From assembly GCA_965645245.1 (NCBI GenBank), contig OZ287069.1, forward strand, positions 62,001-126,000: a stretch of DNA of 64,000 nucleotides, read 5' to 3'. Made by a program: the position numbers and the translations under genes. The notes below the pieces were generated by a model. It was not told the origin of the DNA and did not search any database. It saw only the letters and a list, made by a program, of their open reading frames with translations. This document shows positions 15,293 through 64,000 of this stretch, in pieces (within the stretch, counting starts at the first letter, position 1; every line of letters begins with the position of its first letter). The DNA comes from Massalongia carnosa (taxonomy: Eukaryota).

Positions 15293-16108
15293 TCAGGACC
15301 TAGTGACTGGATTGTGAGGTTCCGTGGGTAATGTTTGAAGGCGTTTTGAGGCGTTAAGAAGGTAAGTGGGGTGGGTTTGTATGTAAAGCTTGTATGCGTC
15401 TGACTTCCATCTTCCTAGCATCTGAATCTCGTCTTCGGTGAGTCCTGCCCGTCGCGCTGTTGTTGCCGCACCTCTTCTGAACGAGTGGCCAGAGAAATTT
15501 CCTATATAGCCCAAGTTCCTTAAGGTGGATTTCATCGCTGTTGTAATGTAGTCTCGAGTGAAGGACTGACCGTTTTTAAAGAGTGGTGCGGCCGGAGAAC
15601 TTGGGAATCGCCTGTATAAATTTGTAAGAGAAGCTAGTGCACAAGCAACATCGTTGGTAGCCGCAATTGTCAGTGTTATGCCTCGGCGAAAGGGATCGGT
15701 TTTGGAGACTGGTAGAGAGAGCTGTAGGTGATCTGCTTCGAACCTAATAGATTTTCTGGTGAGGTGCCATTGATCAAAGCTTGGGTCTAGTACATCTTGC
15801 GTTGTGTAAGTAAATTCTCCGGCTCGTAAGAAGCCTGCAAACGCTAAGCAGTACGCCGCATGTAAATTTGCGCCTTTCTCTTTCGTTTGATCAAGACGAC
15901 TTAGCAATTTGATTAAGATCTCTCTAGTAATTGGTAACCTTTCACGTTTCTCGGCTTCACCGTTCTTTCGCTTTATGCCAGTAAGGATGCGATCTAACAC
16001 CGGGTGATGAAATACGTCGAGATTACCGAGGCCCATATCTATCTGGCATGATCTTATGCCCGTCAAGTAGCTCTTAATAGTTTTTGGTTGCAGGCGTCGT
16101 TCACCCAA
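15293..16108 (-). CDS. Tyrosine recombinase of YR-1 (frame probably extends upstream to ~16300)
   Basis: Catalytic R..HxxR..W..Y: FLRAGEF, SKTDPF, SGHSFRRGAAT, LGRWKSDAYKLY. Confidence 0.92.
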   Translation of the reverse strand: MGERRLQPKTIKSYLTGIRSCQIDMGLGNLDVFHHPVLDRILTGIKRKNGEAEKRERLPITREILIKLLSRLDQTKEKGANLHAAYCLAFAGFLRAGEFTYTTQDVLDPSFDQWHLTRKSIRFEADHLQLSLPVSKTDPFRRGITLTIAATNDVACALASLTNLYRRFPSSPAAPLFKNGQSFTRDYITTAMKSTLRNLGYIGNFSGHSFRRGAATTARRAGLTEDEIQMLGRWKSDAYKLYIQTHPTYLLNASKRLQTLPTEPHNPVTRS

Positions 16109-16308
16109 CGCTGCGATCCACGAAGACAGCGTCCGGATGTTGGCTGGAAATGGTGGCGCGTTGAGGTTTACCCTACAGTAAAGAACGTATCCCTTTCTTG
16201 CCGTTGTGTATAAAGATCTTGTCTTAGTGGCCAGGCCCCACCAGAGGTATCGTGCTGCGATTTCGTCTAGAGGTACCTCACTGTACCAAGATGGGGGTGG
16301 ATCGCGTC

Positions 16309-17880
16309 CTATATTGCTGAGGGTAGAGCCTGAAACTGAGGGATTTTGTCAGCCAGTTTCTTCAAAAGTCCTCTAGACAAGAGATCAGCAATATAATTTT
16401 CTTTGGATGATATCCATCGCGCTTCTATCTGGATATCATGTAATGCAGCTAGCATTGTAATTGCCCGCAGGGCATGCATTGCTTGGCCTCGTATAGAGGT
16501 TTTATTCACTCCTTTCGTGACAGCGTAGCTATCACAATAGAGGATTAAATGACTACCCTTGCATATAGGTAGCCACTTTTTCATAGCTTGAAGAATTGCT
16601 GTCATTTCTTTGACGTTGATATGCTTTGCCCTAAGGCGCGTAGTAAAGCGTGTGCTAAAAGCCTGCCGGGCTGCTTGTATATTATGCAAATTTTGATCCT
16701 CGCTGAGGATAAAGCCGCCCATACCATATGAGCCGGACGCATCTGTCCATATTCTCATAGTATGTCTAGTACGGTTGAGCAGATGTATGCCATTCCATTT
16801 AGGTAGGAAATGATGCCACCATAGAAGATCAGCCCTCATGTCCTTGTTAAGATGGATTAGTTTAGAGGTTACGCTTGCCGTAGCATTGAAAAGACGGCGT
16901 AGAAAGGCTCTTCCTGGTTTTACCACTCTGGCTGCAAAGCATAAGAATCCTAGAAGAGAGTCGAGTTCCTTCCTGGGTATGGCTTTTTTATTCAAAGCTG
17001 CCGATACTAGGGTCTTTGCTTTTAGTAACTTTTCGGAAGGCAAGCGTGCTTCCATGAGCGCGGTATCGATTTCAATGCCGAGGAAATCGCAAGTCGTTCC
17101 AGTTCTGTTCTTTTCGAGCTTGATTTTCATGCCAAGATCTTTACAAATGTTGTGGAAAACTTGATCAAACTTTTCAGCATCTGGTCCGGTGCTGACTATT
17201 ATTAAAAAATCATCCAAGTAATGAATAGCGTCTTTCCAACCACAGTTGTACAATATCCAGTTGATACCCTTCGCGAACAGATCAAAAAGGAACGGCGACG
17301 TTCTCAGCCCAAAGGGTAAGTATTTATCCATCCAAAAGGAATCCTGCCACTTGAAACCTAGTAACCACCAATCGCTTTTTGCTACTGGTATGTGGCGAAA
17401 AGCGTCCGCAAAGTCTCTTTTAATAAGAATACACCCTGGCCCGCGTTGCTCAATCAACCTAATGGCTTCGTCGAAGCTGGTATATTCCAGGGAGCCCCAG
17501 TCTTCCGGTATGTGGTCGTTGACTGAGCTACTCTCCGGATACGATAGATGATGGATTCGCCGCCAACCACCGTTAGCCTTTGGTACAAGGCCTAATGGGG
17601 AACATATAAAGCAAGAAGGAATGTTGTTGACTTTCTCCAACCGATTACTAGCTATTTGTTCTTCGAGGTCATTGGTAAGAACTTCCGGTGCCTCATTTGC
17701 AGAGGCAAGATTATCGCTAATAATGAGTTGATGTGGTCCTGTATAACCAACTTTGGCACCGTAGGTGATGATATCGATAATTGTTTGTGTGTAAGTGCGA
17801 TCCGGGTGATTGGCCAAATGTTTCTCCCAGCCTTCTTTCTTCAATGGGCCCGGTGGGATCTTTGTTAGATTGTCCGTCAA
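16309..17880 (-). CDS. Reverse transcriptase / RNase H of YR-1 (DIRS/Ngaro type)
   Basis: SPLGLVPK..WRRIHHLS, KRDFADAFR, LPFGLRTSP, HYLDDF, WTDASG, INVKEM, NYIADLLSR. Confidence 0.92.
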   Translation of the reverse strand: MTDNLTKIPPGPLKKEGWEKHLANHPDRTYTQTIIDIITYGAKVGYTGPHQLIISDNLASANEAPEVLTNDLEEQIASNRLEKVNNIPSCFICSPLGLVPKANGGWRRIHHLSYPESSSVNDHIPEDWGSLEYTSFDEAIRLIEQRGPGCILIKRDFADAFRHIPVAKSDWWLLGFKWQDSFWMDKYLPFGLRTSPFLFDLFAKGINWILYNCGWKDAIHYLDDFLIIVSTGPDAEKFDQVFHNICKDLGMKIKLEKNRTGTTCDFLGIEIDTALMEARLPSEKLLKAKTLVSAALNKKAIPRKELDSLLGFLCFAARVVKPGRAFLRRLFNATASVTSKLIHLNKDMRADLLWWHHFLPKWNGIHLLNRTRHTMRIWTDASGSYGMGGFILSEDQNLHNIQAARQAFSTRFTTRLRAKHINVKEMTAILQAMKKWLPICKGSHLILYCDSYAVTKGVNKTSIRGQAMHALRAITMLAALHDIQIEARWISSKENYIADLLSRGLLKKLADKIPQFQALPSAI

Positions 17881-17925
17881 GGTGTATGGAAAGGACTCCG
17901 CGATGGATAAGAATGGGGCGGTTAG

Positions 17926-19080
17926 TCATTGCCTTGATGGGAGAGGCATCGAATTTGGGTTAGAGGGTTGATTTTTTCCATTTGTACAGTCCATCGCCCG
18001 ATGTTGCTTTCCACATTTCTCACACACATGTTGGAATCTACAATATACGGGACAGTCTTTGCCATAGTTGTATTTCTTACAGATAATCTTTTCGCCTGAG
18101 GTTTTGAAAGCCGTAGAATTATCGTCCGGTTTTGCAAAGTAAGCGGACGGTTTCCGCACAAGATGCCTTTCCAAGGAATGGTCCATTTCTTTCCATCCAT
18201 CCGGGTTGTCAATCCCGCGAAAGGCTCGAGATTTGTGGAAATTCAAATGAAAGATGCGAACCGAGTCCCAGGTGTAGAAGGCGTATAATGATAGAAGATG
18301 GTCCTGATAAGCCATGAAGGCTCTCATCAGGTTTATCTGGAGACCGGGGTGTGCAAAGTGTAGTAGTATCATCCAATATACCCCGAGACATCGTATCAAA
18401 TGAACTATCCCTTTGATATCTTTTAAGGAGCCATCTTCTTCTCTCGTGGCGATTTCCAGACCTTCTCCGAGTTTGACGTATCTAGAGTTGGTTTGAACTC
18501 CGTCGATGTCGGTACATAGCTTGGTAATGTTGATTGGGTCAAACGTATTCTCGGAGATTTGCTTTATCCATATGGGCTTGATAGTGGGATATTCGTTCAT
18601 AAGAGAAACAAAACGAGGATCCATACCTTCTGTATACAATGAGTTTGGTCGATGCGGTGGAAATGATGTCGGAAATAATAGGGAAGGCTGTTGAGCTGAG
18701 GCTACTGGCCCAGGGACCACGTCTCGGGCACGTGCTTGTTGGGTTTCGATATCCCGCCTAAGACTTACTCTTTCTCTTTCCTCGGCTTCCCTGCGGGACA
18801 TTTCGCGTTGTGCTCTAAGTTCAATAATGTCATCAGGGGTGCGAGAACGGGTTTCCGGTATAACAGGCCCTTGTGAGGAGGAATTAAACGCTGAAGATGG
18901 AAGAGGAGAAGGTTGAGGATGGCTTTGAAGGGTTGCCGTGCTGTCTTGTGAGTCGGGTACTTCGACGTCTGGGTTGGAGTTGGCTAGATTTGCCCTAGCT
19001 CTAGTTCTAGTACGGGCTAGAGTGCTGCCTTGTGTGCGGGAGGTAGGCTTGGTGATTCTGTTGGAGATGCGGGTGGCCAT
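17926..19080 (-). CDS. Gag-like ORF1 of YR-1
   Basis: First ORF of the element (MATRISNR start); C-terminal Cys/His finger CKKYNYGKDCPVYCRFQHVCEKCGKQHRAMDC. Confidence 0.8.
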   Translation of the reverse strand: MATRISNRITKPTSRTQGSTLARTRTRARANLANSNPDVEVPDSQDSTATLQSHPQPSPLPSSAFNSSSQGPVIPETRSRTPDDIIELRAQREMSRREAEERERVSLRRDIETQQARARDVVPGPVASAQQPSLLFPTSFPPHRPNSLYTEGMDPRFVSLMNEYPTIKPIWIKQISENTFDPINITKLCTDIDGVQTNSRYVKLGEGLEIATREEDGSLKDIKGIVHLIRCLGVYWMILLHFAHPGLQINLMRAFMAYQDHLLSLYAFYTWDSVRIFHLNFHKSRAFRGIDNPDGWKEMDHSLERHLVRKPSAYFAKPDDNSTAFKTSGEKIICKKYNYGKDCPVYCRFQHVCEKCGKQHRAMDCTNGKNQPSNPNSMPLPSRQ

Positions 19081-19148
19081 TTTTGGAGGAGAGGGATTTG
19101 AATAGAGTAAATTTAAGTGTAGTGGTTGTATAAATTTGAATTGGGTGA

Positions 19149-19504
19149 AAAGAAAACGTTGCAAACAGTGCTATCAAAATGCTATGCTTTTTGATTGTCT
19201 TGAGATGTGAGATGATGAGGGATACCGTCTGGGACCTCCTCTTTATATATCTTCTTCCTATTCTCCTTGTCCTACTCTACCATCCCAGTATGCCCCATCA
19301 ACGCGGCCCATAGCAAGGCATACACAAATCCGAAACCTAACTGTCGTCCGAAGGATCGATGCGGTGCTAAGATCTCTATGCCGTGCTGAGACATCCTTAT
19401 GGTGCTGAGACATCTATGCCGTCCGAGAGATCCATGCGGTGCCGAAATCAAAGCGGGAGCTGTCTCGATTAACGACGCACTAGCTCTCAGCATAGCCGAA
19501 CTAG
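19149..19504 (-). repeat. YR-1 repeat A1 (356 bp), contains a TATA-like TATATAAA on the minus strand
   Basis: Identical by eye to 14753-15108. Confidence 0.92.
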
Positions 19505-43777: not shown

Positions 43778-44001
43778 GATGGTTCTATGTCACGTGAGGC
43801 CCCTGAGTCAAAGTAAATTAAGAATTACCCTCTGAAAATTCTTTCCTAATTCACTTCTTCTCACTCGGCCTCATCCATCTCACTGACTCGTCGTCGACCC
43901 CACGTTGTCTCGGTGCCCCTACCTCGCTGTCAGTGCTTGCTGCTTTTCCAATCTCACTGACTCGTCGTCGACCTCACGTTGTCTCGGTGCCCCTACCTCC
44001 C

Positions 44002-45016
44002 AATGACGAACACCCGTTCCCAAAGCACCTTGATGGACGACATAGTTCCCGACCCCCAGGAGATTGTCGGATTGACGCAGGCCCAATCCAATCAAATCTT
44101 CGCCCTACAAAAGAAGAAAGCCGAGGCGGAAGCGAAGGCGGCCGAGGCTGAGGCTAGAATTGCCGAGTCCAAGGCATTGGTCGCCGAGAAGGAGGTGGAA
44201 AAAATGCAGCTAGAAATCGACTGCATGCGCCGAGACTCTGACGCCCGAATAGCGGCCGTCATTCCTGCTGGCAAGCCGAGTCGTGTCGTCGGCGATGACG
44301 ACGAAGACCTAGGTGAGATCCCTCTCGAAGTAAGAAGCATAGCACCCCGTTTCGCGGGCCTACCACAGGACGAGATCATCAAGATCTTTTCAAATAAATT
44401 CAAAGCCATCAACCTCTCCCGCCTCCGACACATGCACGGCATGCAATACGAGTCATACAAGGATCAAGACCGCATCGGCATCGAAGACGGCGCCTTGAGA
44501 TTGAGAAAGGCATCCGGGACCTACAAAGATTTCGGAAAGACAGTTCATGACGTCTGGACCGAGAGCTTCATCAACTACACCTCGATCATGGTCAGTCTTT
44601 TCGGGAAATCGAGTCAACAGCTTCACGCCACCATGTCGTCATTCCACGGAAAAATCCTCACGCTGGCCAAGGTGTACGAGTGGCAGGAAGCAGTCCTCCC
44701 CCTCGCCATCGAAACCCACACCCACATCATCGCGTCTCAGCCATCCGACGCATCCCAATGGAAAATGCCCGACGAATTCCAAGCTCGATTCTGCACCCCC
44801 CTCACAGTCCTACGCCGTCGCCGCTCACGATCCCCGCCGTCCCGACGACCGACCCCGAGAGGAGACAGGGCCGAGAGGGCCGAGAAGGCAGCGGGGGAAA
44901 TCTGCGACAAGTACAACAGCGGCACCTGCACCTGGCCGTCGTGCTACCGACAGCACAAATGCAAATCGTGCGGCGCGGCTGGGCATGGCCAGAAGACATG
45001 CCCAACGAAGAAATAG
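44002..45016 (+). CDS. Gag-like ORF1 of YR-2
   Basis: Coiled-coil N-terminus; C-terminal CDKYNSGTCTWPSCYRQHKCKSCGAAGHGQKTC finger. Confidence 0.8.
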
Positions 45017-45061
45017 GGGGTTGGTGCAGGAGGCAGTAGAATAGCTTCAATAGCTGAATTC

Positions 45062-46714
45062 ATGACGTCCCATCCCTGCTTACCTGCACCAATCAGACCA
45101 AATACAATCCCTTCGTTTCAACTCGTAGACGCATCTCGTCAGCGTTTGAAAGACAGCCCATCTCCCCTCGTACCGTCCGCATGGGCAACCCTACTTCAAG
45201 AGTATCCGGGCCCCCTCCGAGTCCATCTGCCCATGATCCTTCGTTTCGGAGTACAAATCGGATACGAAGGCCCCACAGACATCCTTCGGATCGAAAAAAA
45301 TCTGACATCAGCGAATGAGGACCCGGAAACGATCGAGAATAAGCTTCAAGAGGACCTCAGGAAGGGCCGAGTCAGACGAATAGCCGCCCCGAGTCAGCCA
45401 TTTGTGGCTTCCCCCCTCGGCTTGGTCCCGAAACATGACGGAGGATGGCGACGCATTCATCATCTGTCTCATCCCAATCAAACATCAGTCAACGACAACA
45501 TTCCAGAAGAGGCATCCAAATTACAATACGCCAGACTCGACGACATTATTCAATTGATTCTGTCAGAGGGCAAAGGTGCTGTCATAGTGAAAAGAGACGT
45601 CAAAGACGCCTTTCGAAACGTTCCCGTCGCACCTCATCATCAATGGCTTCTGGGTTTCGGATGGAATGACGAATTCTACACCGAGACATGCCTTTCGTTC
45701 GAACTGTCGACGGCCCCGTTCATCTTCAATCTTTTTGCGGAAGGCTTTCATTGGATTTTGGAATCCTTTCTACAATGGAGATTACATCACTATCTAGACG
45801 ACTTCGTTGCAATTTTCCCATCCGAGACATCGTCAGAACGATTGCACCAAGAAACAAAAGCCTACAACATTCTCACCGACATTCTCGGCATCCCGAGAAA
45901 CGACTCAAAAGACGCCGAGGGAACGACAGCTACAGTCTTCGGACTCGAGGTCGACACCATCAACAGTCTTATTCGTCTGCCAGCGGACAAGCTGGAAAAA
46001 GCGAGAATCATCACTACAAAGGCACTAAACGAGACGACAATCAGCCTCGGCGACATGCAGTCAATAGCGGGCTTCCTAAGCTTCTGCGCACAGGCAGTCA
46101 AATTGGGCCGAGTCTTCTTACGATTATTCTGGAATTTTATAGCCTCATTTCCCTCGGGCAGTCATCGTCGGGTCAAAAGAAGAATTCCCACATGGGTCAG
46201 ACAGGATCTCATCTGGTGGAACAAACTTTTAGTGGACTTCAACGGTATTGTCTTCTTCGAGACGTCAACACGAGACACGATCAAGGTGCATACGGATGCA
46301 TGCCTCACGGGTCTCGGAGGCTATTTTCAACGAGACAACGAGCTCGTGAATCAAAAAAACGCATGTAGGGCCCGAGTCCTAGTCCTCAATCAGGAAGAAT
46401 CACCGAGCATAAACGTCCGAGAAGTCGAGGCTATCCTTCTAATCCTTCAGAAATGGGCGCCGACATGGCGACATCGACAGATCCTTGTCTTTACCGACAG
46501 CAACACAGCATACACAGGATTCACGAATCTAACCCTCAAGGGACCGGCCAACGCGCCTCTACGAGAAATACTGTCCATAGCTGCAAAGTGGGACATCGTA
46601 CTACGTTGTCAATGGATCAGTGGCACTTCCAATGGACTAGCAGATGCCCTGTCACGTTTTGATGATGAAAGATTGGCTAACTTTTGCCCTCATTGGCAGA
46701 ACCCATACAATTAG
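45062..46714 (+). CDS. RT / RNase H of YR-2
   Basis: SPLGLVPK..WRRIHHLS, KRDVKDAFR, HYLDDF, HTDAC, NGLADALSR; has LSFEL where YR-1 has LPFGL. Confidence 0.9.
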   Translation: MTSHPCLPAPIRPNTIPSFQLVDASRQRLKDSPSPLVPSAWATLLQEYPGPLRVHLPMILRFGVQIGYEGPTDILRIEKNLTSANEDPETIENKLQEDLRKGRVRRIAAPSQPFVASPLGLVPKHDGGWRRIHHLSHPNQTSVNDNIPEEASKLQYARLDDIIQLILSEGKGAVIVKRDVKDAFRNVPVAPHHQWLLGFGWNDEFYTETCLSFELSTAPFIFNLFAEGFHWILESFLQWRLHHYLDDFVAIFPSETSSERLHQETKAYNILTDILGIPRNDSKDAEGTTATVFGLEVDTINSLIRLPADKLEKARIITTKALNETTISLGDMQSIAGFLSFCAQAVKLGRVFLRLFWNFIASFPSGSHRRVKRRIPTWVRQDLIWWNKLLVDFNGIVFFETSTRDTIKVHTDACLTGLGGYFQRDNELVNQKNACRARVLVLNQEESPSINVREVEAILLILQKWAPTWRHRQILVFTDSNTAYTGFTNLTLKGPANAPLREILSIAAKWDIVLRCQWISGTSNGLADALSRFDDERLANFCPHWQNPYN

Positions 46715-47847
46715 ATGAACCTCCCTCCACCTACCTATCCTCCACACCAGGGTCAGCCCTGGTAAAACGCCTCGTCTGGCACGGACACTCGGCGGACACG
46801 AGAAAAGGGTACGGGACGGCGATCGACTCATACGAGGCATTCTGCGCGACGACGGGACGCACGTCGTGGCCTGCAACAACCGAGTCCTTCGAGGAATGGC
46901 TAGCCGGTCGACTATACGGGGGCGGCACACCCAAGCAGGGAAAGATAAAACCAGAGACGGCAGCGAGCTACCTCGCCGGCCTCAGATCATACCATGTAGA
47001 CCGAGGATACGGCCTCACCCCATTCGAGGGGCCGAGACTTCAATTGATGCTGAAAGGGGGAAAAAGGATCTTTTCTCAGACAAAAAGAAGACGCCTACCC
47101 ATTTCAAAAGAATTACTGACAAAAATCACCAGTATTCCCGCTCATTCGGCCGAAGACCTCAACATCGACGCGACATTCAAAGTTGCATGGGCAGGGTTCC
47201 TCAGACTCGGGGAAATCACCTACACTGTCGCCGATCGTAAGAAGACATCTTTTCAGAGATTGAAACCTACACGAGGTGACATCTCATTCGCCGAGAACGA
47301 TCAATACGCGACATTACGTCTCAAAAGAAGCAAAACAGACACAAATCACTCAGGAGTTCAGATAGTGCTGGCAGCGACCAATGAGAGCACTTGCCCCGTG
47401 ACAGCACTACGGCGTCTTTTCAGAAATGATCCTCAGCCATCTACATCCCCGCTTTTTCGTCTCGGCACCGCATTCACCAGAGCCTCCGTCATAGCATCCC
47501 TGAAAAAGAGACTGATAGCCGCCGGCATCAACGACTCGGCATACTCGGGACACAGCTTCAGAAAAGGAGCAGCACAACACGCCGCCGACCACGGGATGCT
47601 GGATGAGAGTATTCAGAGACTCGGAAGATGGTCATCAAACGCGTTTCAGCTATACTTTCAGACGTCCCAGGCCTCACTATTCAATTTGAACCTCAGTTTT
47701 CAAAAAGGCATCCCTCTGGCAGTCTCACGTGCTGTCGTCGCCGAGACGAATCCTACAAACTCCTACCCCTACTCAATTGGGCATTCCATTGGGCATACAG
47801 GTCAACCAGGGCATCGATCCGGAGCGCCGCCGGGCACCTCCATCTAG
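46684..47847 (+). CDS. Tyrosine recombinase of YR-2
   Basis: FLRLGEI, RSKTD, SGHSFRKGAA, LGRWSSNAFQLY. Confidence 0.92.
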   Translation: MPSLAEPIQLDEPPSTYLSSTPGSALVKRLVWHGHSADTRKGYGTAIDSYEAFCATTGRTSWPATTESFEEWLAGRLYGGGTPKQGKIKPETAASYLAGLRSYHVDRGYGLTPFEGPRLQLMLKGGKRIFSQTKRRRLPISKELLTKITSIPAHSAEDLNIDATFKVAWAGFLRLGEITYTVADRKKTSFQRLKPTRGDISFAENDQYATLRLKRSKTDTNHSGVQIVLAATNESTCPVTALRRLFRNDPQPSTSPLFRLGTAFTRASVIASLKKRLIAAGINDSAYSGHSFRKGAAQHAADHGMLDESIQRLGRWSSNAFQLYFQTSQASLFNLNLSFQKGIPLAVSRAVVAETNPTNSYPYSIGHSIGHTGQPGHRSGAPPGTSI

Positions 47848-53099: not shown

Positions 53100-53504
53100 T
53101 CGCATAATGGCGTCGGCCAAGTTGCCAGTAACTATTCCCACGAGTAGCTATCTGTTGAGGGCTCGATTCGATTATAACGATCTTTTATATTAGGGTATAC
53201 TGTTTTGAACGAGTTCGCGTTGGATAATTGCGACAAGCTAATACAATGTGACTTTGTTCGCGATTGTAAGGAAGCTGTCGTCGATTCTAATCAACCGCTA
53301 TTAAACTAAAATTTATCTACAAAAGAAGAAAAGAATTATTGTGCGCGACTCGCTAGAAATATCTGCACCGAGTGTCGCGCTAGCCTCGTGTGCTCCCGTG
53401 ATCCCCACTTCCATCTCAGCCTTATGTCAGGCTAGGACCCTGACACTATCCCCCCCTTCTATTGGCGAGGTCTCCGAAGCGCTAAGTGGCAGGCGCCCTG
53501 CCAG

Positions 53505-56500
53505 CTAGCCTGATTCTTGATTATCATCTATTTTTGTTAGATCATCTGGTGGTTTGGGTTTCTGTGGATGTTCTCGATGGTATTGGAGGATTTTGTCCTT
53601 TGAATTCTTGAAGTCTGTCCATGGTTGCCAGTAAGGGTTCGCGTTCCATTCATCCCAATTTCCAATGAAGGTTGCTTTGTACTGCACCCCGAACTTTCTT
53701 GTTTCGGGGCAGTCTATTATTTCGAGGACTTCCCATTCTTCGTGGGCCTCCTCTTCGTCGTTTTCGGTTATGGCTATGGGCGATCCAGGCGGTAAGACTT
53801 GTCCGGGGAATGGGTTGGAAGGTGCGAGATGTAGCTTCCACGGATGAAAGATGGGGGTAAGCCCGACGTTCTTTAACTGATCCGGGATCTCTAATTCGTA
53901 TGCCTTATTGTCGATAATTCTTATTATCTTCCATGGTCCTATGTTCTTGAAGCTTAATGATCTGCTGGGTCTTTCTGAAGCAAAGTGCTTGGCGTTTACA
54001 TAAACCATGTCCCCGATTTTGTATTCGAGGTGAGGTTGACGGCCTTTGTTTGCGTGTCGTGTTTGTTCTTCCTGAGCCCAGGCTAATTGATCTCGGAGCC
54101 AGGTTCGCATGGCTTCTTGACGTTCTATGATTTTGTCAGCATGCAGTATCTCTGCTTTTCCTTTTCCTTCGTATGTGCCTGGTGGTTCGATGCCACAGCG
54201 TGGGTGGAAGCCATGGTCTGCGAAGAATGGAGTCATTCCCGTTGATACATTTACATGAGTGTTGGCGGCAAACTCTGCGTCTGAAAGATAATCCACCCAG
54301 TTGTCTTGTGTGTAATTGACGTATGCTCGGAGATAATTTTTCATTACCTTGTTGGCGTTTTCGGTTTGACCGTCTGTTTCGGGATGCTGTGCAGATGAGA
54401 ATTTTATTCGCACCCCGTATCTTTCGCAAACTCTTTTCCATAAGTGAGCGGTTAGTTGACTACCGCGATCGTTGACTGTTGATATAGGAAATCCGTAAGA
54501 GGAGAATAATCTCCTGGACATCGCATCCATCAGTTCATCAGTAGAGAGAGAGGTTAGTGGTTCGTATAATCGTCTTTTCGTTAAACGATCTACTATCACT
54601 AATATGTGTTGATAGACTCTGTTTCGTCTTCGACATTCTGGAAGGAATTCGACGAAGTCCAATGACACGTCCATCCATTTTCTATTTGGGATGGGAAGAG
54701 GATTCAGCAGGCCTTGCTTCTTGTCGTTGTATGCTTTTGATCTTCGGCATACGGAGCAGTTAACTGCGTATCTCTTGCAGTGATCCTTCATTTCAAACCA
54801 GAAATAATTTTCTCTCATTATCTGATACATACTTTTGTATCCCGGATGGCCCTGTAATGGTGGTTCGTGATGCTTTTTCAGTAAATGTAGCTGCAATGGC
54901 TTGTAATCTGGTACGTATAGTCTTCCTTTAACATACAGCTTGTCGTTTTCTAGTTTGAGGTCCCCCATCGCTAGCTTTATTCCTCTTTATATGAGGTTCA
55001 ATGGGAGTTTCCTCAGTTCCTTCCTCTTTGCTGCTACTATGTCTTGAACTGTTTCGTCTTTTTCGTAAGCTTCTTCAATTAGTTCCTCCAAAGTCTTCGT
55101 TACTGAGCTCTCGGTCTCGTCGATCACTGATGTAGGTTCTGCGTTGGGTTCCTCCGATCCTGTTGTGTCTTCCTCGATGAATTCGCTTTGATTATCTTGA
55201 TTGTTATCGTCGTCGTCGTCCGCTGTGTTTGCGCAGAACACGACTGCTAACGCTTTTCGTACATCGTCATCTAGTTGATGCTCTTGAAGCAGCGTTTGAA
55301 ACTGATGTTGCTCGCTGATATCTTCGAATCCTTTCGGGAGATCTTGAGAGCGTCGAGTAAGCGTATCCGGTTTCTCTCCTTGCTTTCCCGGTCGATACAT
55401 AATCTTGAAATTAAATTCGGAAAGAAATTCGGCCCATCTGGCTTGCCTTCTGTTTAGCTGCTTCGTGGTCATGAAGTGCTCTAAATTCTTGTGATCGGTG
55501 TATACTTTAACAGGTTTATCAGGAGCAGCACTTGCAACCTCGGGGCGCCAGACTTCGAAGCTTTTTACAATAGCGAGGAGTTCCTTATCATAAATCATAT
55601 AGTTACACTCGGCAGGGGTCATCTTCTTGGAAAAATAGGCTACCGGTTTCAGTACTCCATCGTGCATTTGAGAGAGTACTCCGGCGCTGACGAAATCTGA
55701 AGAGTCAGTCTCGACCCATGTTTCCAGGGCCGGATCGTAATGTGTTAAGACGGGAGCGGTGGTGAACGCAATTTTTAAATCTTCGAAGGCCTTTTGACAA
55801 TCTTCAGACCATACGAACGAATTATACTTGGTTCGTTTCTTTCCTGATTTCGTCGTTATTTGTTCGCCCTTTGTTAATTCTGTTAACGATCTCGTCCGTT
55901 GCGAAAATCTCGATATAAATCGTCGATAAAAATTCGCAAAGCCTAAAAATGCTTGCACGTCTTTTACAGAGCCTGGGGTCTCCCATTTCAGAATCGCCTC
56001 GATTTTCTCCGAGTCCATCTTTATTCCATCGGTGGTAACTATTAATCCAAGATACTTTACTTCCGTCACAGAGAATTCGCATTTGTCTATGTCCACTTGC
56101 AGTCCTTTCTCCTTCAATCGAGTTAGAACTTTTAACACTTGTTCGGAATGCTCTTCTTCCTTTTCGCTATAAATTAGGACATCGTCCAAGTACGCAGTGC
56201 AGAAGACGTCTAAGTATTCTCTGACTGTATCGTTAATGAAGCTCTGAAAGGTTCCCGGAGCGTTGCAGAGACCGAATGGCATTACCAGATATTCGAACTG
56301 ACCATATCTGGTATTGAAAGCCGTGAGCCATTCGTGGCCTTCCTTCATTCTCATACGATTGAAAGCGGTAATCACATCCAGTTTTGTGAACTTCTTGGCT
56401 TGTGATAGTTTTCCCAAAGTTTCATTTATCAACGGTATTGGGTACCTGTTCTTGATCGTGATGGAGTTTAAGGCTCTATAATCTACGCAAAATCTGAAAC

Positions 56501-57449
56501 CACCCCCTGGTTTTCTAACTAAAAGAACGGGGGCTGCTGCGCTTGACGAACTTGGACGGATGAAGCCTTTTCCCAGATGCTCGTCGATGTATTTCTTAAC
56601 CGCGTCCAATTCTTGTTCTGACATGGGTTTATAGTTCCTTACGTACGGAGCTTCTTTTCCCGCTTCGAGATTTATCTGATGATCCTCCTTCCGGTGTTCA
56701 GGCAGTTCATCCGCCTTGTGCTTCATGAAAACATTTATTACGCTGTGATAAGCTGCTGGGACTCTCTTCAACAACTCCTCTCGGGTGTATTCCGGTTTTC
56801 CCTTCATGAACTTGTCGTAATCTCCTGATGTCACTGCTCCGGTGGTAGTTGCGCAGAAGACCTTCTTTGTTTCTCGAGGAATCCATAGATAGCCGTCGTG
56901 ATCCTTCTTTCTGGCCATTCGAAAGAGGTGTTTTGCGTTGACTGGAAGAACTTCGATGTCTTCCTTAGGCTCGATCCTATTCTTAACCTCGCTTCCCACA
57001 GCGAATTCGGTGCAAGTTATCCCTCGTGTAAGACATCCTTTTTCAAGACAATGTGATGAGTTGAACTTCATCGTTCTCTCTTTCCAATTGATCATTGGGT
57101 TGTGCGTTTGCAGCCATCCATCCCCTAAAATGACTGCATACGCTTCTAGTTTTGCCAAATAACATAAGACTTGCTCTTCGTGATCTCCGATTTTCACGTC
57201 GATCAAGGCGGCCTTCGAGAGGAGCTGTACTACCTCTCCATTTCCCAAAGTAAGTTTGACCTTCTTATCCAATTTGAAGGTGTTCAGTTTGTGTTTACGC
57301 ACAATGGATTCGTCAATGAGTTCAGCTTCACTTCCATTATCGATAAGTAAACGGGTTTTAATTCCAGCTATGCTAGTTTTAAAAACTAAATGCATGCCCT
57401 CGATTTTCTTTTCAGTATCGCGGACAGCACAAGTAGAGACCCTAACCAT
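53505..57449 (-). pseudogene. pol: Gypsy-D Pol (PR-RT-RNaseH-IN-chromodomain), one frameshift near 54985
   Basis: LIDNGS, FRFCVDYRALN, YLDDVLIYS, ETDSSD, GHPG..CSVC, DRGSQ, GQTENAN, WEVLEII..WQPW. Confidence 0.9.
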
Positions 57450-57523
57450 TTTCGTTTCAGTGTCACCGTTCCCATTAACAACCTCCTTGTTTGTAAGCCC
57501 TTGATCGCGATTTCGATCAAGGA

Positions 57524-59170
57524 CTAGGCTTTTCCCGCCTCAGAGTCCGCTCCCGAATCTGTTTCTTCTGTCCTCATGGTGCTCAAGTTCTTGTCCCTGT
57601 ATTGAGGACAAATGGTATCGTTTCCTCGATGTCCTGATCCCCTGCATGCCCAGCATCGGCGTTGACGGGAGAGGGACTCGCGCTCGTCGTCCTTCAGCTT
57701 CTTTGGGTTTGGGTCTGGATCATACCAGGTGCCTACCCAACCGACCGGTTTGACTATCGTTGGCATCAGCTTCGCATTCGGCCGATCATCAGATTTCTTG
57801 GAGCTGGTTTGATTGATGGAGGATGAGGCGGACTTTCCGCCGGAGGACTGGGTTGAGGATTGTCCGCCGGAGGAATTGCTTCGTTGGCTGGAATTCTTCG
57901 TTGCGGCTGGTTTATCGGGACGAGGAAAGTGGTGCGCCACATCTTTGCGGCGGTCTTCGATTCTTCGTGCTTCGTCAAGTAAAGGGCGGAAATCAGTAAA
58001 GACTGAACCCATAAGAGAGTTGGAGATGCTAGGCTTTAACGTCACGAGGAACTTCTCAATTCGCTCGTCAACGGAATTTTTGGCTTTCTGCCATAGCTTG
58101 AAGATTCGGTGATAATACTCGCTGACGCTTTCGCCCCCTTTCATGGTGACGGTGAGGAGTTCTTTCTTGGCGTCGCGGCTCTGGAGGTGAATGCCCATAT
58201 AGTGCTCTATCTCTTCGAATAAAGCGTCGGCCGATAGTGAGTCTCCCATATCCACTATCCAAGAGTGCATAGCCCCGAAGATCGGCTCTTCCATTTGAGA
58301 CAGCGCGTAACCGACCTTTTCGTTCTCATCGGCGTAGAGGGGTGCGTCTGTCTTCAGTTTATTGCGGACGGAGTACGCCCAAGGGCTATACTCCTCCGAG
58401 TCCTCACCTTTAAGTGGCTTGCTAGGGTTTATACCATGGGGTCGCCAATTCTGGGGGTTGGCGTTGGTGCTTCGGGTAGTAACGGTATCTTCTCGTTGAT
58501 GACGTGGTGTTTCCCGTGTTTCCGCTAACTGGCGGACCAGGGAGTCTATGTCTTTCTGTAATCTCTCTTTTGCTATAGTCATTGCCTCCAATTCGATATC
58601 TCTATGCGATAGTTCTTCTTGCGCGAGAAGGGCCTCTCGTTCGGCATCGTCTTTTTCCGTGATGAGACGTTCATGTACTTGTTTGTAACGTCTGTTGATC
58701 TTTTTGGCCTCGCCAAGCTTCTCCAGGTCGCCCTGCAAGGAGATGTATTTGTTGAATAGGGTCTTGTCGTATTCGAGCGCTCTCGCGAGGAAGTCATACC
58801 ATCGGGGTCCTTCTTTCTCGTCTCGCAAGATGCTCTGCAATTCCTTCAAATTGTGTGCTGCAACGTGGGACGGATGTTCCGTGGCATCCTTCTCGTAATA
58901 TGGATGATTGGAGACATCGATCTTCTGAAAAAACTCCTTTTCTTTTTCACGTCCTGCTCTTGGGATTTTTCCCCACGTCCCCTCCGTTGTTTCTTTAATC
59001 TGTTCGTTCTGAGGTAATTCGGAGTCTTCAAACGTTCCCGGCATGCAGCTATCCGAGCGAGACGAATGACGGGAGACGGAACGAGCGCGGGTGTTAAATG
59101 CTAGGCCGGTCTGGGCCTCTGCGGGAGGGGCTACGGCCTTTCTCGCCGTCATTGGCGTTTTTGAGCTCAT
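57524..59170 (-). CDS. gag: Gypsy-D Gag
   Basis: Position after the 5' LTR; Zn knuckle CWACRGSGHRGNDTICP; ends AGKA* over GGGAAAA. Confidence 0.88.
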   Translation of the reverse strand: MSSKTPMTARKAVAPPAEAQTGLAFNTRARSVSRHSSRSDSCMPGTFEDSELPQNEQIKETTEGTWGKIPRAGREKEKEFFQKIDVSNHPYYEKDATEHPSHVAAHNLKELQSILRDEKEGPRWYDFLARALEYDKTLFNKYISLQGDLEKLGEAKKINRRYKQVHERLITEKDDAEREALLAQEELSHRDIELEAMTIAKERLQKDIDSLVRQLAETRETPRHQREDTVTTRSTNANPQNWRPHGINPSKPLKGEDSEEYSPWAYSVRNKLKTDAPLYADENEKVGYALSQMEEPIFGAMHSWIVDMGDSLSADALFEEIEHYMGIHLQSRDAKKELLTVTMKGGESVSEYYHRIFKLWQKAKNSVDERIEKFLVTLKPSISNSLMGSVFTDFRPLLDEARRIEDRRKDVAHHFPRPDKPAATKNSSQRSNSSGGQSSTQSSGGKSASSSINQTSSKKSDDRPNAKLMPTIVKPVGWVGTWYDPDPNPKKLKDDERESLSRQRRCWACRGSGHRGNDTICPQYRDKNLSTMRTEETDSGADSEAGKA

Positions 59171-60488
59171 GACTGGATTCTGAAAATAGGAAAGCTTAAT
59201 TCCCTGATTCGAAACGTTCTGGAAGTTCTAGAATTTGGATCGGTTTAGATTCGCACAAACGATCAATCTGGAAAGTTACTGAAACGGGTTTTCACCCTAT
59301 CTGGAAGAAAGTTGCTGGATGGGACCTCGTCCCTACTGGAAGTTCTAGAAGAAAGAATACTAATAGGTAGATAAATTGTGTAAGGAAGCTGTCGTCGATT
59401 CTAATCAACCGCTATTAAACTAAAATTTATCTACAAAAGAAGAAAAGAATTATTGTGCGCGACTCGCTAGAAATATCTGCACCGAGTGTCGCGCTAGCCT
59501 CGTGTGCTCCCGTGATCCCCACTTCCATCTCAGTCTTATGTCAGGCTAGAACCCTGACAGCGATCTTGAAGATAATTATTATGAGACTTTCGCAGCGGCA
59601 CAATTGTCCTTCTCTAGCTTCTTGAGTGGAGGTGATGTGCGGCCTGCTAGGTCAGAAACCTCTACGTGGTGCAGGCTATAAACACTTCCTCGGAGGTGGC
59701 CAATATCTGATCATCGCCAACGCGGAAGCCCACCTTGGTGGCCGTTTGAATGATCAACGTCTCTACTGATCATTCCTCACTTCGAAGGCATACAAAGCCC
59801 ATTCATTCGGAATGGCCACGCCCCTCAGGCGGAAGCCTCTCACCACATTGAAAAAGCCCATTCATTCGGAATGACCACACTTCCACACCTTCATTTATAC
59901 GACACCACGATCTGCCCTCGATCACGGCCAGTCTTTTCTTGAGTCAAACGGTTAAAGAGAGAGAACGTTCGTCGAACGTGTGGAGATACACTGTCTAGTT
60001 CATCAAGTCTACAGGATTCCTAGCTCTTGAAGATCTGGGTGTATGCACCGCGTGGTAGAAGAACGATTTCGTTGCGTTCAATATTACCCTGGGGGCCAGG
60101 TTTCCACTTCCTGACTGTTGTTTATGTACATAAATAGCAGTCACAGCGTCATATCCTAAGGATGCATACGCTTAATGAATTAATAAAAAATAAAATAAAA
60201 AAGGAGGTGATGCGCAGCTTTGCCCAACGGACCAGAGATTTTGCTTCCGGAGAGAATTATTTCGGTTGAACCTTTATCCGATGATCTCATGCATATTTCT
60301 GTTTGGCCCTACGGTGTTTGAATTAGCTTTCGTATAACGCATCGCCGTCGTGGTCCAAGAGCTAGCTTCTTTGAATGGAGGTATTCAACGGCGCTCGTCA
60401 AACTGTCTTGTCCAAGCTAAGTGCGTGTGCGCGTGGGTATGGAAGGGTCGTGCAGGAGGCGTTTATGGAGATCAGTTCGCAACTAAAT

Positions 60489-62269
60489 TCAAGAGCTGTA
60501 CGCAAATCCCGAACTATACCTCGAAACCCTGACGGCTCTTTTTGGGGATTCAGCTCGTTTTCTTTTTTGGTTTGGGAGAACATCCTGAAGCACCCTTCCA
60601 ATATATTTTGCTCGCTCAAAGTCGATAAGCATCACCCGGCCCACTTCTCGATTCCATAGAAGGTTTGGTGGCCGTACATCCATCTGATCGATTCCTGCCC
60701 GTTGAACCTCGGCGACAGTTCGCCAGGTTTCCCGCTGTAAGCCTTTCCATCCTTTCACACTCTCATCCTCGTCGGCAAGTTCACCACCCCAAGACATTAA
60801 AAGCATGTGCAGTATCCTGACGCCCACATCAAGATAGTACCACTCGGTGAGTTCAATATTTCTCAAGCACACTGGTACCACTCTACCTTGGAGCCTCGCA
60901 AGCCGCCGATAAATATTACCCTCATGCAATAAATCAGGCACACAAGCTTGTACTGTACCTTTGCCAACGAAAACATAGCCGTGTGAAGCCAATGTAATCC
61001 TGAAAAGGGCCCCCCGTGCCCCTTGCAGGCCAAGCGGCTCGCAATTGTGGTCGAGGTCCTCGGTGAGCTGCTTTTGAACGAGATCCAGGAACGTTGACTG
61101 GTCAACCGCATGCTTCGCGCCAAGTACGGGATGGAGCGATGCATTCGGGCATTTTCTGTCCAGCGGTGATCTGCGTGTAATGCCCAACAAGCATCCTTGT
61201 GTACAGTACTGTCGCTGCATGCCGTGGCTGCTACTTGCTTGGTTTTTGTTGTTCCCACCTCCGTCTTTCTGTTGGCTGTCAGGTTTCCTTCGGCTCCTTC
61301 TAGAACCGCTCGCACTCGCTCTGGTAGTGCTCCTTGCTGGGTCGGGATCGTCCTGCCCATCATCCGGGTTTGGAGGCAGATTTCCTGGTTTGCACTTCGA
61401 CCTCAGATTATACTGGCTGGTAATGGGAACCTTCCTTCCTCCTTTGTACAGTGGTGACTTCCACACACGCTTCCTCCCTGCTGCGAGTTTTCTCTCACTT
61501 GCCGGCGTTTCCTGGAGGACGGTTTCAAGACTGTTAACTGGATATGTCTCCAATTTCTCTTTCGCCTCCCGCCGCCATCCATGAACTCTTGGTTTGGTTT
61601 TGGAAGCCATCAGACATAGACTCAATACCTGGCCGATGGCCGTTCGCGAGTAAGGGAAGTCGGACCCATCGTCGTTGATCTCGTCGGTCGGTACCGTTAC
61701 GTGATAGTAAAGAGTTGTTGGATCGTCCGCCTTTACATGAAGGAAAACAAATGCCTCTCCAGTCGTAATATAGCTGTATTCAAGCCCGTTCTCAATCATG
61801 TAATGAAAGGTTTGCGTTGCCACGGCCACAGCCACCTTGTCCGCATTGTATTGTAGCCTGGCTGCGACAGCCTCGCCCTCTTCAGTTCTCTCTTCTCGAG
61901 AGTGTTCCTGGTTTTCTCCGGTTTGGTTGAGAGGGACTGGGCTCAAGAGTCGTAGGAAAGTTTGCTTTGACGGATGAAAGATTTTAGACTCTCGAAAATA
62001 TCTCTTCCTGTTTTTCAGAAAACCCATTCCACTGACTCAACGTTTTCGGGAAGTATTTCTTCGCAGGATTGGTAAGGCCTTTAGTCGTCAAACTTTTATC
62101 GGTCTCGACGCGTAATGGTTTATGAAGATGTTCGTGGCAAGCCTGTAGAAATTCTTCGAAGGTTGTTCTCTGATTGCGCTGCCGCTCTTCTTGGGTTTCC
62201 TCTTCCGCCTTCTGCCTGTCCTCTTCCGCCTTCTGCTTGTCCTCTTCCGCCTTCTGCTTGTCCTCTTCC
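60489..62269 (-). pseudogene. Spok-like (spore-killer family) gene: coiled coil, partial nuclease-like region, Cys cluster, kinase-like domain; disrupted
   Basis: (EEDKQKA)n heptads then TTFEEFLQACHEHL..LTTKGLTNP; TQTFHYMIENGLEYSYITTGEAFVFL; YCTQGCLLG..LDRKCPN; GARGALF..GYVFVGKGT; DVRPPNLLW..MLIDFERA. Stop/frameshift near 61985. Family call from recalled domain architecture. Confidence 0.7.
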
Positions 62270-64000
62270 TGTCAAATATATAAAGGTCAAAAGGCATAAT
62301 CAGGGAATTGGGTAGATGTTGATTGTATTGTGGAGGATGTGGAAAAGTGGGAATCTATCTAAGGGGGGAGGCCACGTGTCTAGTCGGGCCGGAATAACCC
62401 TTCGGATATATCATCCTGAGTTACCACTGATGTTTAGGATTAGTTATCCTATAATTTGACACACCCCCTCAGATCTAGAAACACCGTTTATAGATCTGGA
62501 ATCAGTCCAGTATAATCCCTTATATTCCTTATCTTGATGCTTTGTCCTCTGAAACACGCCACCTGAACGCCCGATTGTGAATGCATTAGACGATTTTTCA
62601 AACTTTCCATCTTTCGTATCGAGTCCAATCTTTCTGATATGTTCACCAATCCTATCAATCTTATGAATCCCTCATGCTTCTGCCTTGATAAGGCCTTCGT
62701 CAATCCGTCCGCCGGCATCTTAGCTGTGGCCAACCATCTTATCGACACCCTACCGGCCTGATATTCCTGTCTCAACCAGTGATTATGTATGTCCACATGG
62801 CGAAGCCGAGTTTGAAGCTTCATATCCTCACTAGTTATCAAGTTGATAGTCTGTTTGTTGTCGCAGTCGATGATCACCGGTTCCTCCAGTCTCACCTTGA
62901 TGGCCTTTAACAGTCGTCTTAGATACATTGCTTCTTTGGTGGTGTCCGACAAGGCCAGCAATTCGGCCTCAGTGCTCGATGTGGTCACCGTCGCCTGTTT
63001 GCTTGCTTTCCATGCAACCGGTCCTCCGAACAGCGTCATTATATATCCTTGAGAACTTTTCCTATCCTTGTTGTCCGCGAAGGACGCGTCGCTAGCACAT
63101 AGGAACCGTTGTATCCCTTCCTCTTGTTTTCCTTCATATTGAATCGCCAGGGTTTTGGTGGCGTATAGGTATTCTAGGACTCGCATCGCTGCCTGGTGAT
63201 GTTCATCGGAAGGATTTATGGAGAATTGGGATAGTTTGGACACCGTGAATGCGATATCTGGTCTGGTGGTTATGGCTGCGAATAGGGCTGTTCCTATCCT
63301 TTGTTGATCTAAGTCAATGGACTGATGGGATGCTTTGTTTTCTGAGACTGTATATTGAGTTGATATCATAGGAGTATCTGGTAGTTTCTTATCTAGTTGA
63401 ACATCGAATTTATTAGCCATCTTATCAATATAGGCCTCTTGGGATAGCCATAGAAGTCGTTTAGACCTATCTCTTATGACTCTGATTCCTAAGAACCATT
63501 CGATTTCCCCCAGTGATTTCATGGTGTATATTGAACATAAATGCTCGATGGCTTTCAAGGCCTGACCCTCGATCGATTTGTGGTAACAAAATACCGTGTC
63601 ATCCACATAATAGAATGCTAGGATTCCGCCTCTCATCATTATACATGATTCTTGAGGTATGGCCCTAAATTCCATGGATTGAAATGTTTTTGACAGATGC
63701 TTCTGCCATAGATATGGTGACCGTCTCAGGCCGTAGAGTGCTTTTCTAAGTCTTAACACATATTTTTGTTTTAGACCACATCTCTGATTTAACCTCTTCC
63801 ACCTTTGAGCTTTACTGTCCGGAACTATACCGATTCAAGGGTGATCAGTCCTTGTCGACTAGTTCTCCAGAATGGTTTCTCACCTAGACTGGCCGCGTTT
63901 TCTCTTGGGTGTGAAGGCCTTCCTTTTACAGAAGTCATCATTTCACCAGGGGTCGCCGCTGTTTGGTCTTCTGATAGAGTCGTCCTCTTTTCAGTGCCCG
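62270..64000 (-). mobile_element. Ty1/Copia element (Copia-E), 3' end, runs off the window
   Basis: 192 bp LTR 62270-62461 with TGTCAAA...TTTGACA termini; PPT gagggggtg; RT/RNaseH ORF. Confidence 0.9.
62488..63759 (-). CDS. pol: Copia-E RT (C-terminal part) and RNase H
   Basis: KALYGL, YVDD, TRPDIAF, SDASFAD, SSTEAELL, ADGLTK; N-terminal RT motifs appear to be missing. Confidence 0.88.
   Translation of the reverse strand: MLRLRKALYGLRRSPYLWQKHLSKTFQSMEFRAIPQESCIMMRGGILAFYYVDDTVFCYHKSIEGQALKAIEHLCSIYTMKSLGEIEWFLGIRVIRDRSKRLLWLSQEAYIDKMANKFDVQLDKKLPDTPMISTQYTVSENKASHQSIDLDQQRIGTALFAAITTRPDIAFTVSKLSQFSINPSDEHHQAAMRVLEYLYATKTLAIQYEGKQEEGIQRFLCASDASFADNKDRKSSQGYIMTLFGGPVAWKASKQATVTTSSTEAELLALSDTTKEAMYLRRLLKAIKVRLEEPVIIDCDNKQTINLITSEDMKLQTRLRHVDIHNHWLRQEYQAGRVSIRWLATAKMPADGLTKALSRQKHEGFIRLIGLVNISERLDSIRKMESLKNRLMHSQSGVQVACFRGQSIKIRNIRDYTGLIPDL

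What the first reader, a model, noticed from the sequence alone, without database searches (positions are those of the whole stretch)
60489..62269. Disarmed Spok-like meiotic-drive gene: killer domain apparently lost, kinase-like domain retained
Seen: a minus-strand gene with 21 bp tandem repeats encoding (EEDKQKA)n, then TTFEEFLQACH, a Cys cluster (YCTQGCLLG..CPN) and an atypical kinase-like C-terminus. A Copia LTR interrupts the coiled-coil repeat at 62270 and there is a stop/frameshift near 61985. Established: Podospora Spok poison-antidote proteins have coiled-coil, nuclease, Cys-rich and kinase domains; the nuclease is needed for killing and the kinase for resistance. Inference: this is a homologue, and the nuclease catalytic core seems deleted around 61870-61930 (no EYK-type motif visible). 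A 512-codon frame with the kinase stays open, so it could be a dead driver or a resistance-only allele.
Basis: partly seen in the sequence, partly recalled or inferred. Interest (0 to 1): 0.72.

Follow-up and report, generated by a model that had tools for sequence, protein, structure and literature searches.

The report
Dead Spok-like spore-killer gene copy
This is the broken remnant of a fungal gene related to the Spok spore-killer poison-antidote genes: the poison core really is deleted, but the copy has also lost its start and shows damage in the antidote part, so it is most likely a dead gene among many relatives in the same genome.

Summary
Window 60489-62269 (minus) is a Spok-like gene (Pfam SPOK2_N on its homologues, best 72% identical). 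It lacks 160-169 codons at 61933/61934, including the D...E-x-K nuclease motif, which close homologues and a 97%-identical sister copy on contig C20 keep. The Cys cluster and kinase motifs remain in a 512-codon frame.

'Resistance-only allele' is the weaker reading. The 5' end is not beyond the Copia (no target-site duplication) and was not found elsewhere in the assembly. A 2-bp frameshift precedes the deletion. The kinase carries Gly>Arg at a site invariant in 93 of 93 homologues. dN/dS against sister copies is 0.75, against 0.30-0.43 for intact paralogue pairs (small counts). No RNA run was available.

The genome holds at least 18 family loci: 9 long open frames, 9 broken. Drive was not tested, and no direct alignment to Podospora SPOKs was possible.

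Two side findings are more interesting. The C20 sister is a ~6-kb foldback palindrome that could yield hairpin RNA. A full-length C13 paralogue has Asn at the catalytic Asp. Verdict: pseudogene of a known family.

The parts
62270..62461 (-). Copia LTR (192 bp, TG...CA); downstream LTR of a minus-strand Copia whose pol continues to the window end and beyond. It replaces the gene's 5' end
   Evidence: (RVT_2 on 62491-63834)
62198..62269 (-). Last 3.4 copies of the 21-bp coiled-coil repeat (EEDKQKA/EEDRQKA)
61987..62197 (-). Start of N-terminal domain 1 (TTFEEFLQACH...), no start codon upstream, 97% identical in DNA to the C20 sister
61984..61986 (-). 2-bp deletion, frameshift and premature stop
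61933..61934 (-). Junction of the ~0.5-kb internal deletion (160-169 codons) that removed the end of domain 1 and the D...E-x-K nuclease core
60489..62027 (-). 512-codon open frame from an ATG brought into frame by the frameshift; first ~13 codons non-homologous, then QxxxY half of domain 2, linker, Cys cluster, kinase
61110..61205 (-). Cys/His cluster C-x3-C-x13-C-x5-H-x6-H, intact
60612..61060 (-). Kinase-like domain; D-x-R-x-x-N and DFE motifs intact; Phe>Cys (codon at ~60944) and Gly>Arg (~60863) specific to this copy
53265..59559 (-). Gypsy-type LTR retrotransposon downstream (LTRs 98.9% identical); part of the transposon nest around the remnant

Best explanation
A decaying pseudogene of a Spok-like nuclease-kinase gene. 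The intact ancestor (~780 aa) most likely worked as SPOK proteins do: the PD-(D/E)xK-type domain damages DNA, and the Cys cluster plus kinase protect carriers (inferred from homology, not shown here). This copy then lost the nuclease core by a ~0.5-kb deletion, took a 2-bp frameshift, and lost its start and upstream region at a Copia element whose far flank belongs to other DNA (LTR recombination or deletion; inferred). It now drifts. The open kinase frame reflects youth (2-3% divergence from sisters), not selection. The order of the lesions is unknown.
For: Shown: deletion, frameshift, missing 5' end. The subfamily's start region was found only in the two C20 arms, and the expected Copia-repeat junction was not found in G000. 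Gly>Arg at a column that is G in 93 of 93 full-length homologues; Phe>Cys where 85 of 93 have F and none has C; the C3 sister keeps both residues. dN/dS 0.75 (13 non-synonymous, 5 synonymous) vs 0.31, 0.30, 0.43 for three young intact pairs. The locus sits in a transposon nest: 13 of 23 long window frames scanned hit transposon or integrase Pfams. 9 of 18 family loci in the genome are broken. Spok pseudogenes with missing 5' ends and transposon insertions are known (Spok-psi1, PMC6660238).
Against: The 512-codon frame has no stop and keeps all Cys/His and kinase catalytic motifs. Its ATG has a purine at -3 and G at +4. The Copia LTR lies upstream in sense orientation and could drive read-through. 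The number of departures at conserved columns (4 of 87, one a junction artefact) is within the 0-10 range of intact homologues. dN/dS rests on 18 changes and mixes both lineages, and the sisters are themselves broken (by hand, P about 0.05 against omega 0.3). The predicted kinase fold stays confident, although AlphaFold is insensitive to point changes.
Confidence: 0.75

Rival explanations
1. Resistance-only (antidote-only) allele: the Copia LTR drives a transcript, the ATG at 62027 gives a 512-aa Cys-kinase protein, and this protects spores against intact drivers of the same subfamily.
For: SPOK3 K240A and the strain A Spok2 allele lose killing but keep resistance (PMC6660238). Frame open, motifs intact, LTR in sense orientation. 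Antidote-only suppressors are known for wtf (PMC6283613, title and abstract start only). A rock metagenome holds 94-99% identical pieces, so close relatives exist elsewhere.
Against: Published resistance-only alleles are point mutants of the full-length protein; no passage I saw shows the kinase half working without domain 1. Gly>Arg at an invariant site. An upstream ATG at 62297 in the LTR opens a ~70-codon frame that ends before 62027. Spok2/3/4 do not cross-protect (PMC12693581), and the intact paralogues here are only about 50-55% identical at best, so there is no in-genome target.
Confidence: 0.1
2. The subfamily never drove. It is a distant SPOK2_N-family nuclease-kinase with another role (vegetative conflict, defence, transposon cargo), so this is a dead copy of a non-driver.
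For: The family is very large (1,503 clusters at 50% identity, E<=1e-30). The window frame is only 31-35% identical to the two Hypocreales homologues retrieved. Grognet's distant relatives are described as 'very diverged', clade I is argued not to drive (PMC6660238), and 4 of 6 FuSpoks assayed showed no toxicity in yeast (PMC12693581).
Against: Multi-copy young paralogues, variable coiled-coil repeat number, frequent pseudogenisation and nearness to transposons match the pattern described for driving clade II Spoks. Catalytic D, E and K are kept in 88, 90 and 91 of 93 homologues.
Confidence: 0.35
3. The lesions are assembly or base-calling errors, as reported for Spok genes in nanopore assemblies.
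For: PMC12693581 section 15 reports false stops in FuSpoks from nanopore reads.
Against: Logan contigs from runs X1 (61043-62015) and X3 (61695-62015) span the deletion junction and the frameshift with no differences.
Confidence: 0.02

Closest known systems
Podospora SPOK1-4 (Vogan et al. 2019, PMC6660238; passages seen)
   Same: Order of parts: coiled-coil repeat, domain 1, D...E-x-K core with 21-residue D-to-K spacing (SPOK3 219-240; P0001 246-267), QxxxY, disordered linker, Cys/His cluster, atypical kinase; single exon.
   Different: Nuclease core deleted, frameshift, no 5' end; last His spacing x6, not x7; probably a distant subfamily (31-35% to Hypocreales homologues); drive not shown; no direct alignment to SPOKs was possible.
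Spok-psi1 pseudogene of P. anserina (PMC6660238)
   Same: Missing 5' end, transposon insertion, broken frame, transposon-rich setting.
   Different: Spok-psi1 has many stops and no internal deletion; this copy keeps a 512-codon frame.
Resistance-only Spok alleles (Spok2 of strain A, Spok3 K240A)
   Same: Killing domain disabled, kinase motifs kept.
   Different: Those are full-length point mutants with a native promoter; this is a 5'-truncated deletion copy with kinase substitutions.
FuSpok family of Fusarium (PMC12693581; bioRxiv 10.64898/2026.10.04.756499, abstract only)
   Same: Up to 25 copies per genome, many broken, in repeat-rich regions; here at least 18 loci.
   Different: No DUF3435 Starship captain among 23 long window frames scanned; other flanks were not scanned; host lineage differs.
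Drosophila Nmy/Tmy hairpin-RNA suppressors of Dox (PMC12941216, passages)
   Same: Applies to the C20 sister, not the window: an inverted duplicate of a putative driver that can fold into a long hairpin.
   Different: No transcript or small-RNA evidence, and the palindrome also contains a transposon end.

Membership tests
SPOK-like family (Pfam PF27653 SPOK2_N) | Homology to SPOK2_N-bearing proteins | tested here: met
   117 of the 120 listed hits carry PF27653, best E 1.6e-221; PF27653 = SPOK2_N, feature score 0.99 for P0002 and 0.95-0.97 for the window frame. The local Pfam copy gave no such hit, only weak APH.
SPOK-like family | N-terminal coiled-coil repeat of variable length | tested here: met
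   3.4 copies left in the window; much longer and unequal arrays in the two C20 arms.
SPOK-like family | PD-(D/E)xK catalytic core (D...E-x-K) | tested here: not met
   Deleted in the window copy; present in the C20 sister and in 88/90/91 of 93 homologues.
SPOK-like family | Middle domain has the PD-(D/E)xK fold by structure | tested here: inconclusive
   The C13 model shows helix, strands carrying the D position and E-x-K, then the QxxxY helix. Fold searches were filled by kinases, and a profile search of PDB gave no meaningful hit. The assignment rests on PMC6660238's HHpred result and motif spacing.
SPOK-like family | QxxxY motif | tested here: met
   QTFHY in the window frame.
SPOK-like family | Cys/His cluster C-x3-C-x13-C-x5-H-x7-H | tested here: met
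   C-x3-C-x13-C-x5-H-x6-H; same x6 in close homologues.
SPOK-like family | Atypical kinase with catalytic Asp and DFG-like motif | tested here: met
   DVRPPN and IDFER; kinase fold in the C13 model, Rio2 E 1.5e-6, ULK4 Z 11.9, rmsd 2.5, 135 aligned. Two conserved-site substitutions in the window copy.
Podospora-type Spok (clade II) | Close sequence relationship to SPOK1-4 | not testable with these tools
   No named SPOK among the 120 + 120 listed hits; the paper's Fig. 7 source file gives counts only.
Functional Spok driver | Spore killing and self-resistance | not testable with these tools
   Needs crosses or the yeast assay.
Functional resistance-only allele | Native start and promoter, expression, conserved kinase | tested here: not met
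   Native 5' end absent; invariant Gly changed. Expression itself could not be tested.

The most novel reading that the evidence does not exclude
The window copy is one of three young (97-98% identical) sisters of a recently active Spok-like killer, and the genome disarmed that killer in a way not described for fungi. The C20 sister, a ~6-kb foldback of the gene's 5' third, would be transcribed into a long hairpin RNA that silences any intact allele of this subfamily met in a cross, as Drosophila Nmy/Tmy silence Dox. The window frame and/or the C13 Asp>Asn paralogue would act as antidote-only alleles. The two sisters' breakpoints lie 14 bp apart in the same gene, which may mark a shared fragile or self-cut site.
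Probability: 0.1. Interest if true: 0.75.

Novelty: new member of a known kind. Interest (0 to 1): 0.33.

Why it matters
The remnant itself is ordinary: Spok pseudogenes are known. It matters as a pointer to an at least 18-locus Spok-like family with clear birth and death in an ascomycete far from Podospora and Fusarium (nearest named homologues come from lichen fungi; host not determined). That genome offers natural variants (core deletion, kinase-only piece, foldback, catalytic Asp>Asn) to test two open questions: whether the kinase half alone gives resistance, and whether fungi silence spore killers with hairpin RNA.

Tried and rejected
Looked for the 5' end beyond the Copia: the far LTR is split by a transposon with inverted ends and followed by GATGC and unrelated DNA. 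Two junction patterns (Copia end plus repeat; reciprocal flank plus LTR) gave 0 matches in G000 (a blank does not prove absence). Expression: no RNA holder listed among 18 runs, which is no evidence either way. 4 of the 18 runs were laid (X1, X3, X4, X5); X4 and X5 gave short pieces and none bridged the deleted part, so an intact allele elsewhere is neither shown nor excluded. Direct comparison with SPOK1-4: not reached by two homologue searches or by the supplement (1 of 11 files read; the others may bear on it). Structural proof of the nuclease fold: no hit. RIP as cause of decay: rejected; TpA/ApT about 0.7 and (CpA+TpG)/(ApC+GpT) about 1.2 in gene, Copia and window, and the palindrome arms differ at 1 of about 2,270 non-repeat bases. 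Starship context: no DUF3435 hit in 23 long window frames. A regex screen found 0 of 38 testable homologues lacking E-x-K, but the alignment shows 1 of 93 (P0055, partial model) gapped there. Literature: four searches listed no paper on a hairpin suppressor of Spok or on a Spok family in lichen fungi; the library lacks most subscription papers. Earlier findings of this scan: nothing relevant.

Full report
Observation. The minus strand carries 3.4 copies of a 21-bp repeat at 62198-62269, a frame with TTFEEFLQACH that stops at 61984, and a 515-codon frame 62036-60489 (ATG at 62027, 512 codons) with QTFHY, a C-x3-C-x13-C-x5-H-x6-H cluster, DVRPPN and IDFER. A 192-bp Copia LTR starts at 62270. The window is G000:C3:62001-126000 of a 52.2-Mb, 25-contig genome and is mostly transposons (13 of 23 long frames scanned hit transposon or integrase Pfams).

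Family. A search with the 515-aa frame gave 602 proteins at E<=0.001 among 8,000 candidates scored. 117 of the 120 listed carry PF27653, and the best are 770-820 aa at 70-72% identity. The ESM Atlas names PF27653 as SPOK2_N. Named near relatives come from Xylographa, Lobaria, Circinaria and other ascomycetes; I did not determine the host. A profile of 90 sequences finds 1,503 clusters at 50% identity with E<=1e-30, so the family is large. The architecture matches SPOK3 as described in PMC6660238 (passages), including a 21-residue D-to-K spacing (SPOK3 219-240; P0001 D246-K267). A model of the intact C13 paralogue (pLDDT 79) shows a long N-terminal helix, a mixed helix/strand middle domain, a disordered linker and a kinase fold. 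My searches did not confirm the nuclease fold by structure. I could not align to SPOK1-4; the two Hypocreales homologues retrieved are 31% and 35% identical, so this is probably a distant subfamily (inference). In a FastTree of the Cys-kinase region (50 sequences; 9 picked sequences dropped by motif or length filters) the window groups with P0002 (support 0.955), apart from all intact paralogues of its own genome.

The lesions. (1) Deletion: tblastn of P0001 matches residues 40-136, then 298-783. 160-169 residues are missing, including D246, E265 and K267, which 88, 90 and 91 of 93 full-length homologues keep (93 of the 120 hits, those of 690 aa or more; one, P0028, is this genome's C13 protein). 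The junction is at 61933/61934. (2) A 2-bp deletion at ~61985 against the C20 sister makes the stop and brings a previously out-of-frame ATG (62027) into the kinase frame. (3) The 5' end is lost. The Copia's far LTR (97.8% identical over 185 bp) is split by an element with 47-bp inverted ends (pogo/Fot1-like by eye, not scanned) and followed by GATGC, not CTTCC. The subfamily's start region occurs only in C20. Contigs from runs X1 and X3 bridge lesions 1 and 2 without differences.

Dead or resistance-only? For dead: Gly>Arg where 93 of 93 homologues have Gly, and Phe>Cys where none has Cys; the kinase-only sister at C3:2,427,970-2,428,511 (97.6% identical) keeps both residues. dN/dS is 0.69 against that sister, 1.0 against C20, pooled 0.75 (13 vs 5 changes), while three young intact pairs give 0.31, 0.30 and 0.43. 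Against dead: the frame is open; the motifs are intact; only 4 of 87 conserved columns differ, within the 0-10 range of intact homologues; the ATG context is fair and the LTR lies upstream in sense; the counts are small. Published resistance-only alleles are full-length point mutants. Spok2-4 do not cross-protect (PMC12693581, passages), so an antidote would need a near-identical killer, and no intact one was found in this assembly. I put dead at 0.75 and resistance-only at 0.10. Whether the ancestor drove is a separate open question (non-driver 0.35). The DNA-damage mechanism is taken from PMC9972908 (passages) and inferred by homology only.

Genome context. 28 protein matches (30 candidates scored; a lower bound) fall into 18 loci. 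Nine have one frame of 734-913 codons with E-x-K and DFE motifs (my Cys regex matched 7 of these 9); nine are broken. This resembles the multi-copy, turnover-rich FuSpok family (PMC12693581 section 15; bioRxiv 10.64898/2026.10.04.756499, abstract). No RIP signature was seen.

The C20 sister. C20:~1,069,500-1,075,600 is an inverted duplication with a 430-bp spacer. The long arm reads from ATG through a long repeat array, domain 1 and the E-x-K motif, then turns back: no QxxxY, no kinase. The arms differ at 1 of about 2,270 non-repeat bases but differ in repeat number, and a Copia sits in one arm only, which argues that the structure is real (inference; no reads were laid on it). The inner 1 kb folds into a 303-bp perfect stem. 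The genome has 2 Dicer matches and RdRP matches at 5 loci. A hairpin suppressor like Drosophila Nmy (PMC12941216, passages) is therefore possible. But the arms also contain the end of a DUF6589/helicase repeat of at least 40 copies, lying ~105 bp upstream of the ATG, so a transposon-caused rearrangement without function is the simpler reading. The foldback point lies 14 bp from the left breakpoint of the window's deletion, which I cannot explain.

Verdict. Observation confirmed; interpretation partly supported; new member of a known kind; interest 0.33. Papers seen only as search listings: PMC6283613, PMC10292708, 10.1101/2021.08.05.454923.

Noticed in passing
L027:3522-9611 (G000:C20 ~1,069,500-1,075,600): Foldback palindrome of the sister gene's 5' third plus a transposon end; arms nearly identical, 430-bp spacer holds the nuclease motif, no kinase; could give hairpin RNA.
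   Followed up: partly
L040:1363-3732 + (G000:C13 ~417,700-420,100): Full-length 790-aa paralogue with Asn at the nuclease catalytic Asp, while its 70-72% identical relatives keep Asp; kinase motifs intact. A better candidate for a disarmed, resistance-only gene than the window copy.
   Followed up: partly
L025:5971-6512 - (G000:C3 2,427,970-2,428,511): 542-bp kinase-only sister, 97.6% identical, with no Cys cluster or upstream part.
   Followed up: partly
window 61934 and L027:6162: The window deletion's left breakpoint and the C20 foldback point are 14 bp apart in the same gene; unexplained.
   Followed up: no
L027:7807 outward, L033:5555-8567: Repeat of at least 40 copies (95-97% identical ends) coding DUF6589 and DEAD/Helicase_C frames: an apparently active transposon family with a RecQ-like helicase (the RecQ label is recalled).
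   Followed up: partly
L023 (G000:C3 ~129,665-132,861): DNA transposon with 47-bp inverted ends and internal 17-bp repeats, inserted near the end of the Copia's far LTR.
   Followed up: no
window 15296-19170 (-) and 43961-47844 (+): Frames with RT/RNase H next to a frame with a weak phage-integrase hit or none, a layout like DIRS/Ngaro tyrosine-recombinase retrotransposons (label recalled).
   Followed up: no
window 60638-60950 and 60988-61604: Contigs in X1 and X3 join these places at single-copy depth with 29-39-letter sides: perhaps another rearranged fragment of the family, or a diverged paralogue.
   Followed up: no
window 59900-60260: Short, very high-copy repeat just downstream of the gene (contig depth 100-fold or more above single copy in X1 and X3).
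   Followed up: no
L057:1408-3720 + (C19) and L054:1408-3741 + (C21): Long open paralogue frames in which the Cys-cluster pattern did not match; they may have lost or altered it.
   Followed up: no
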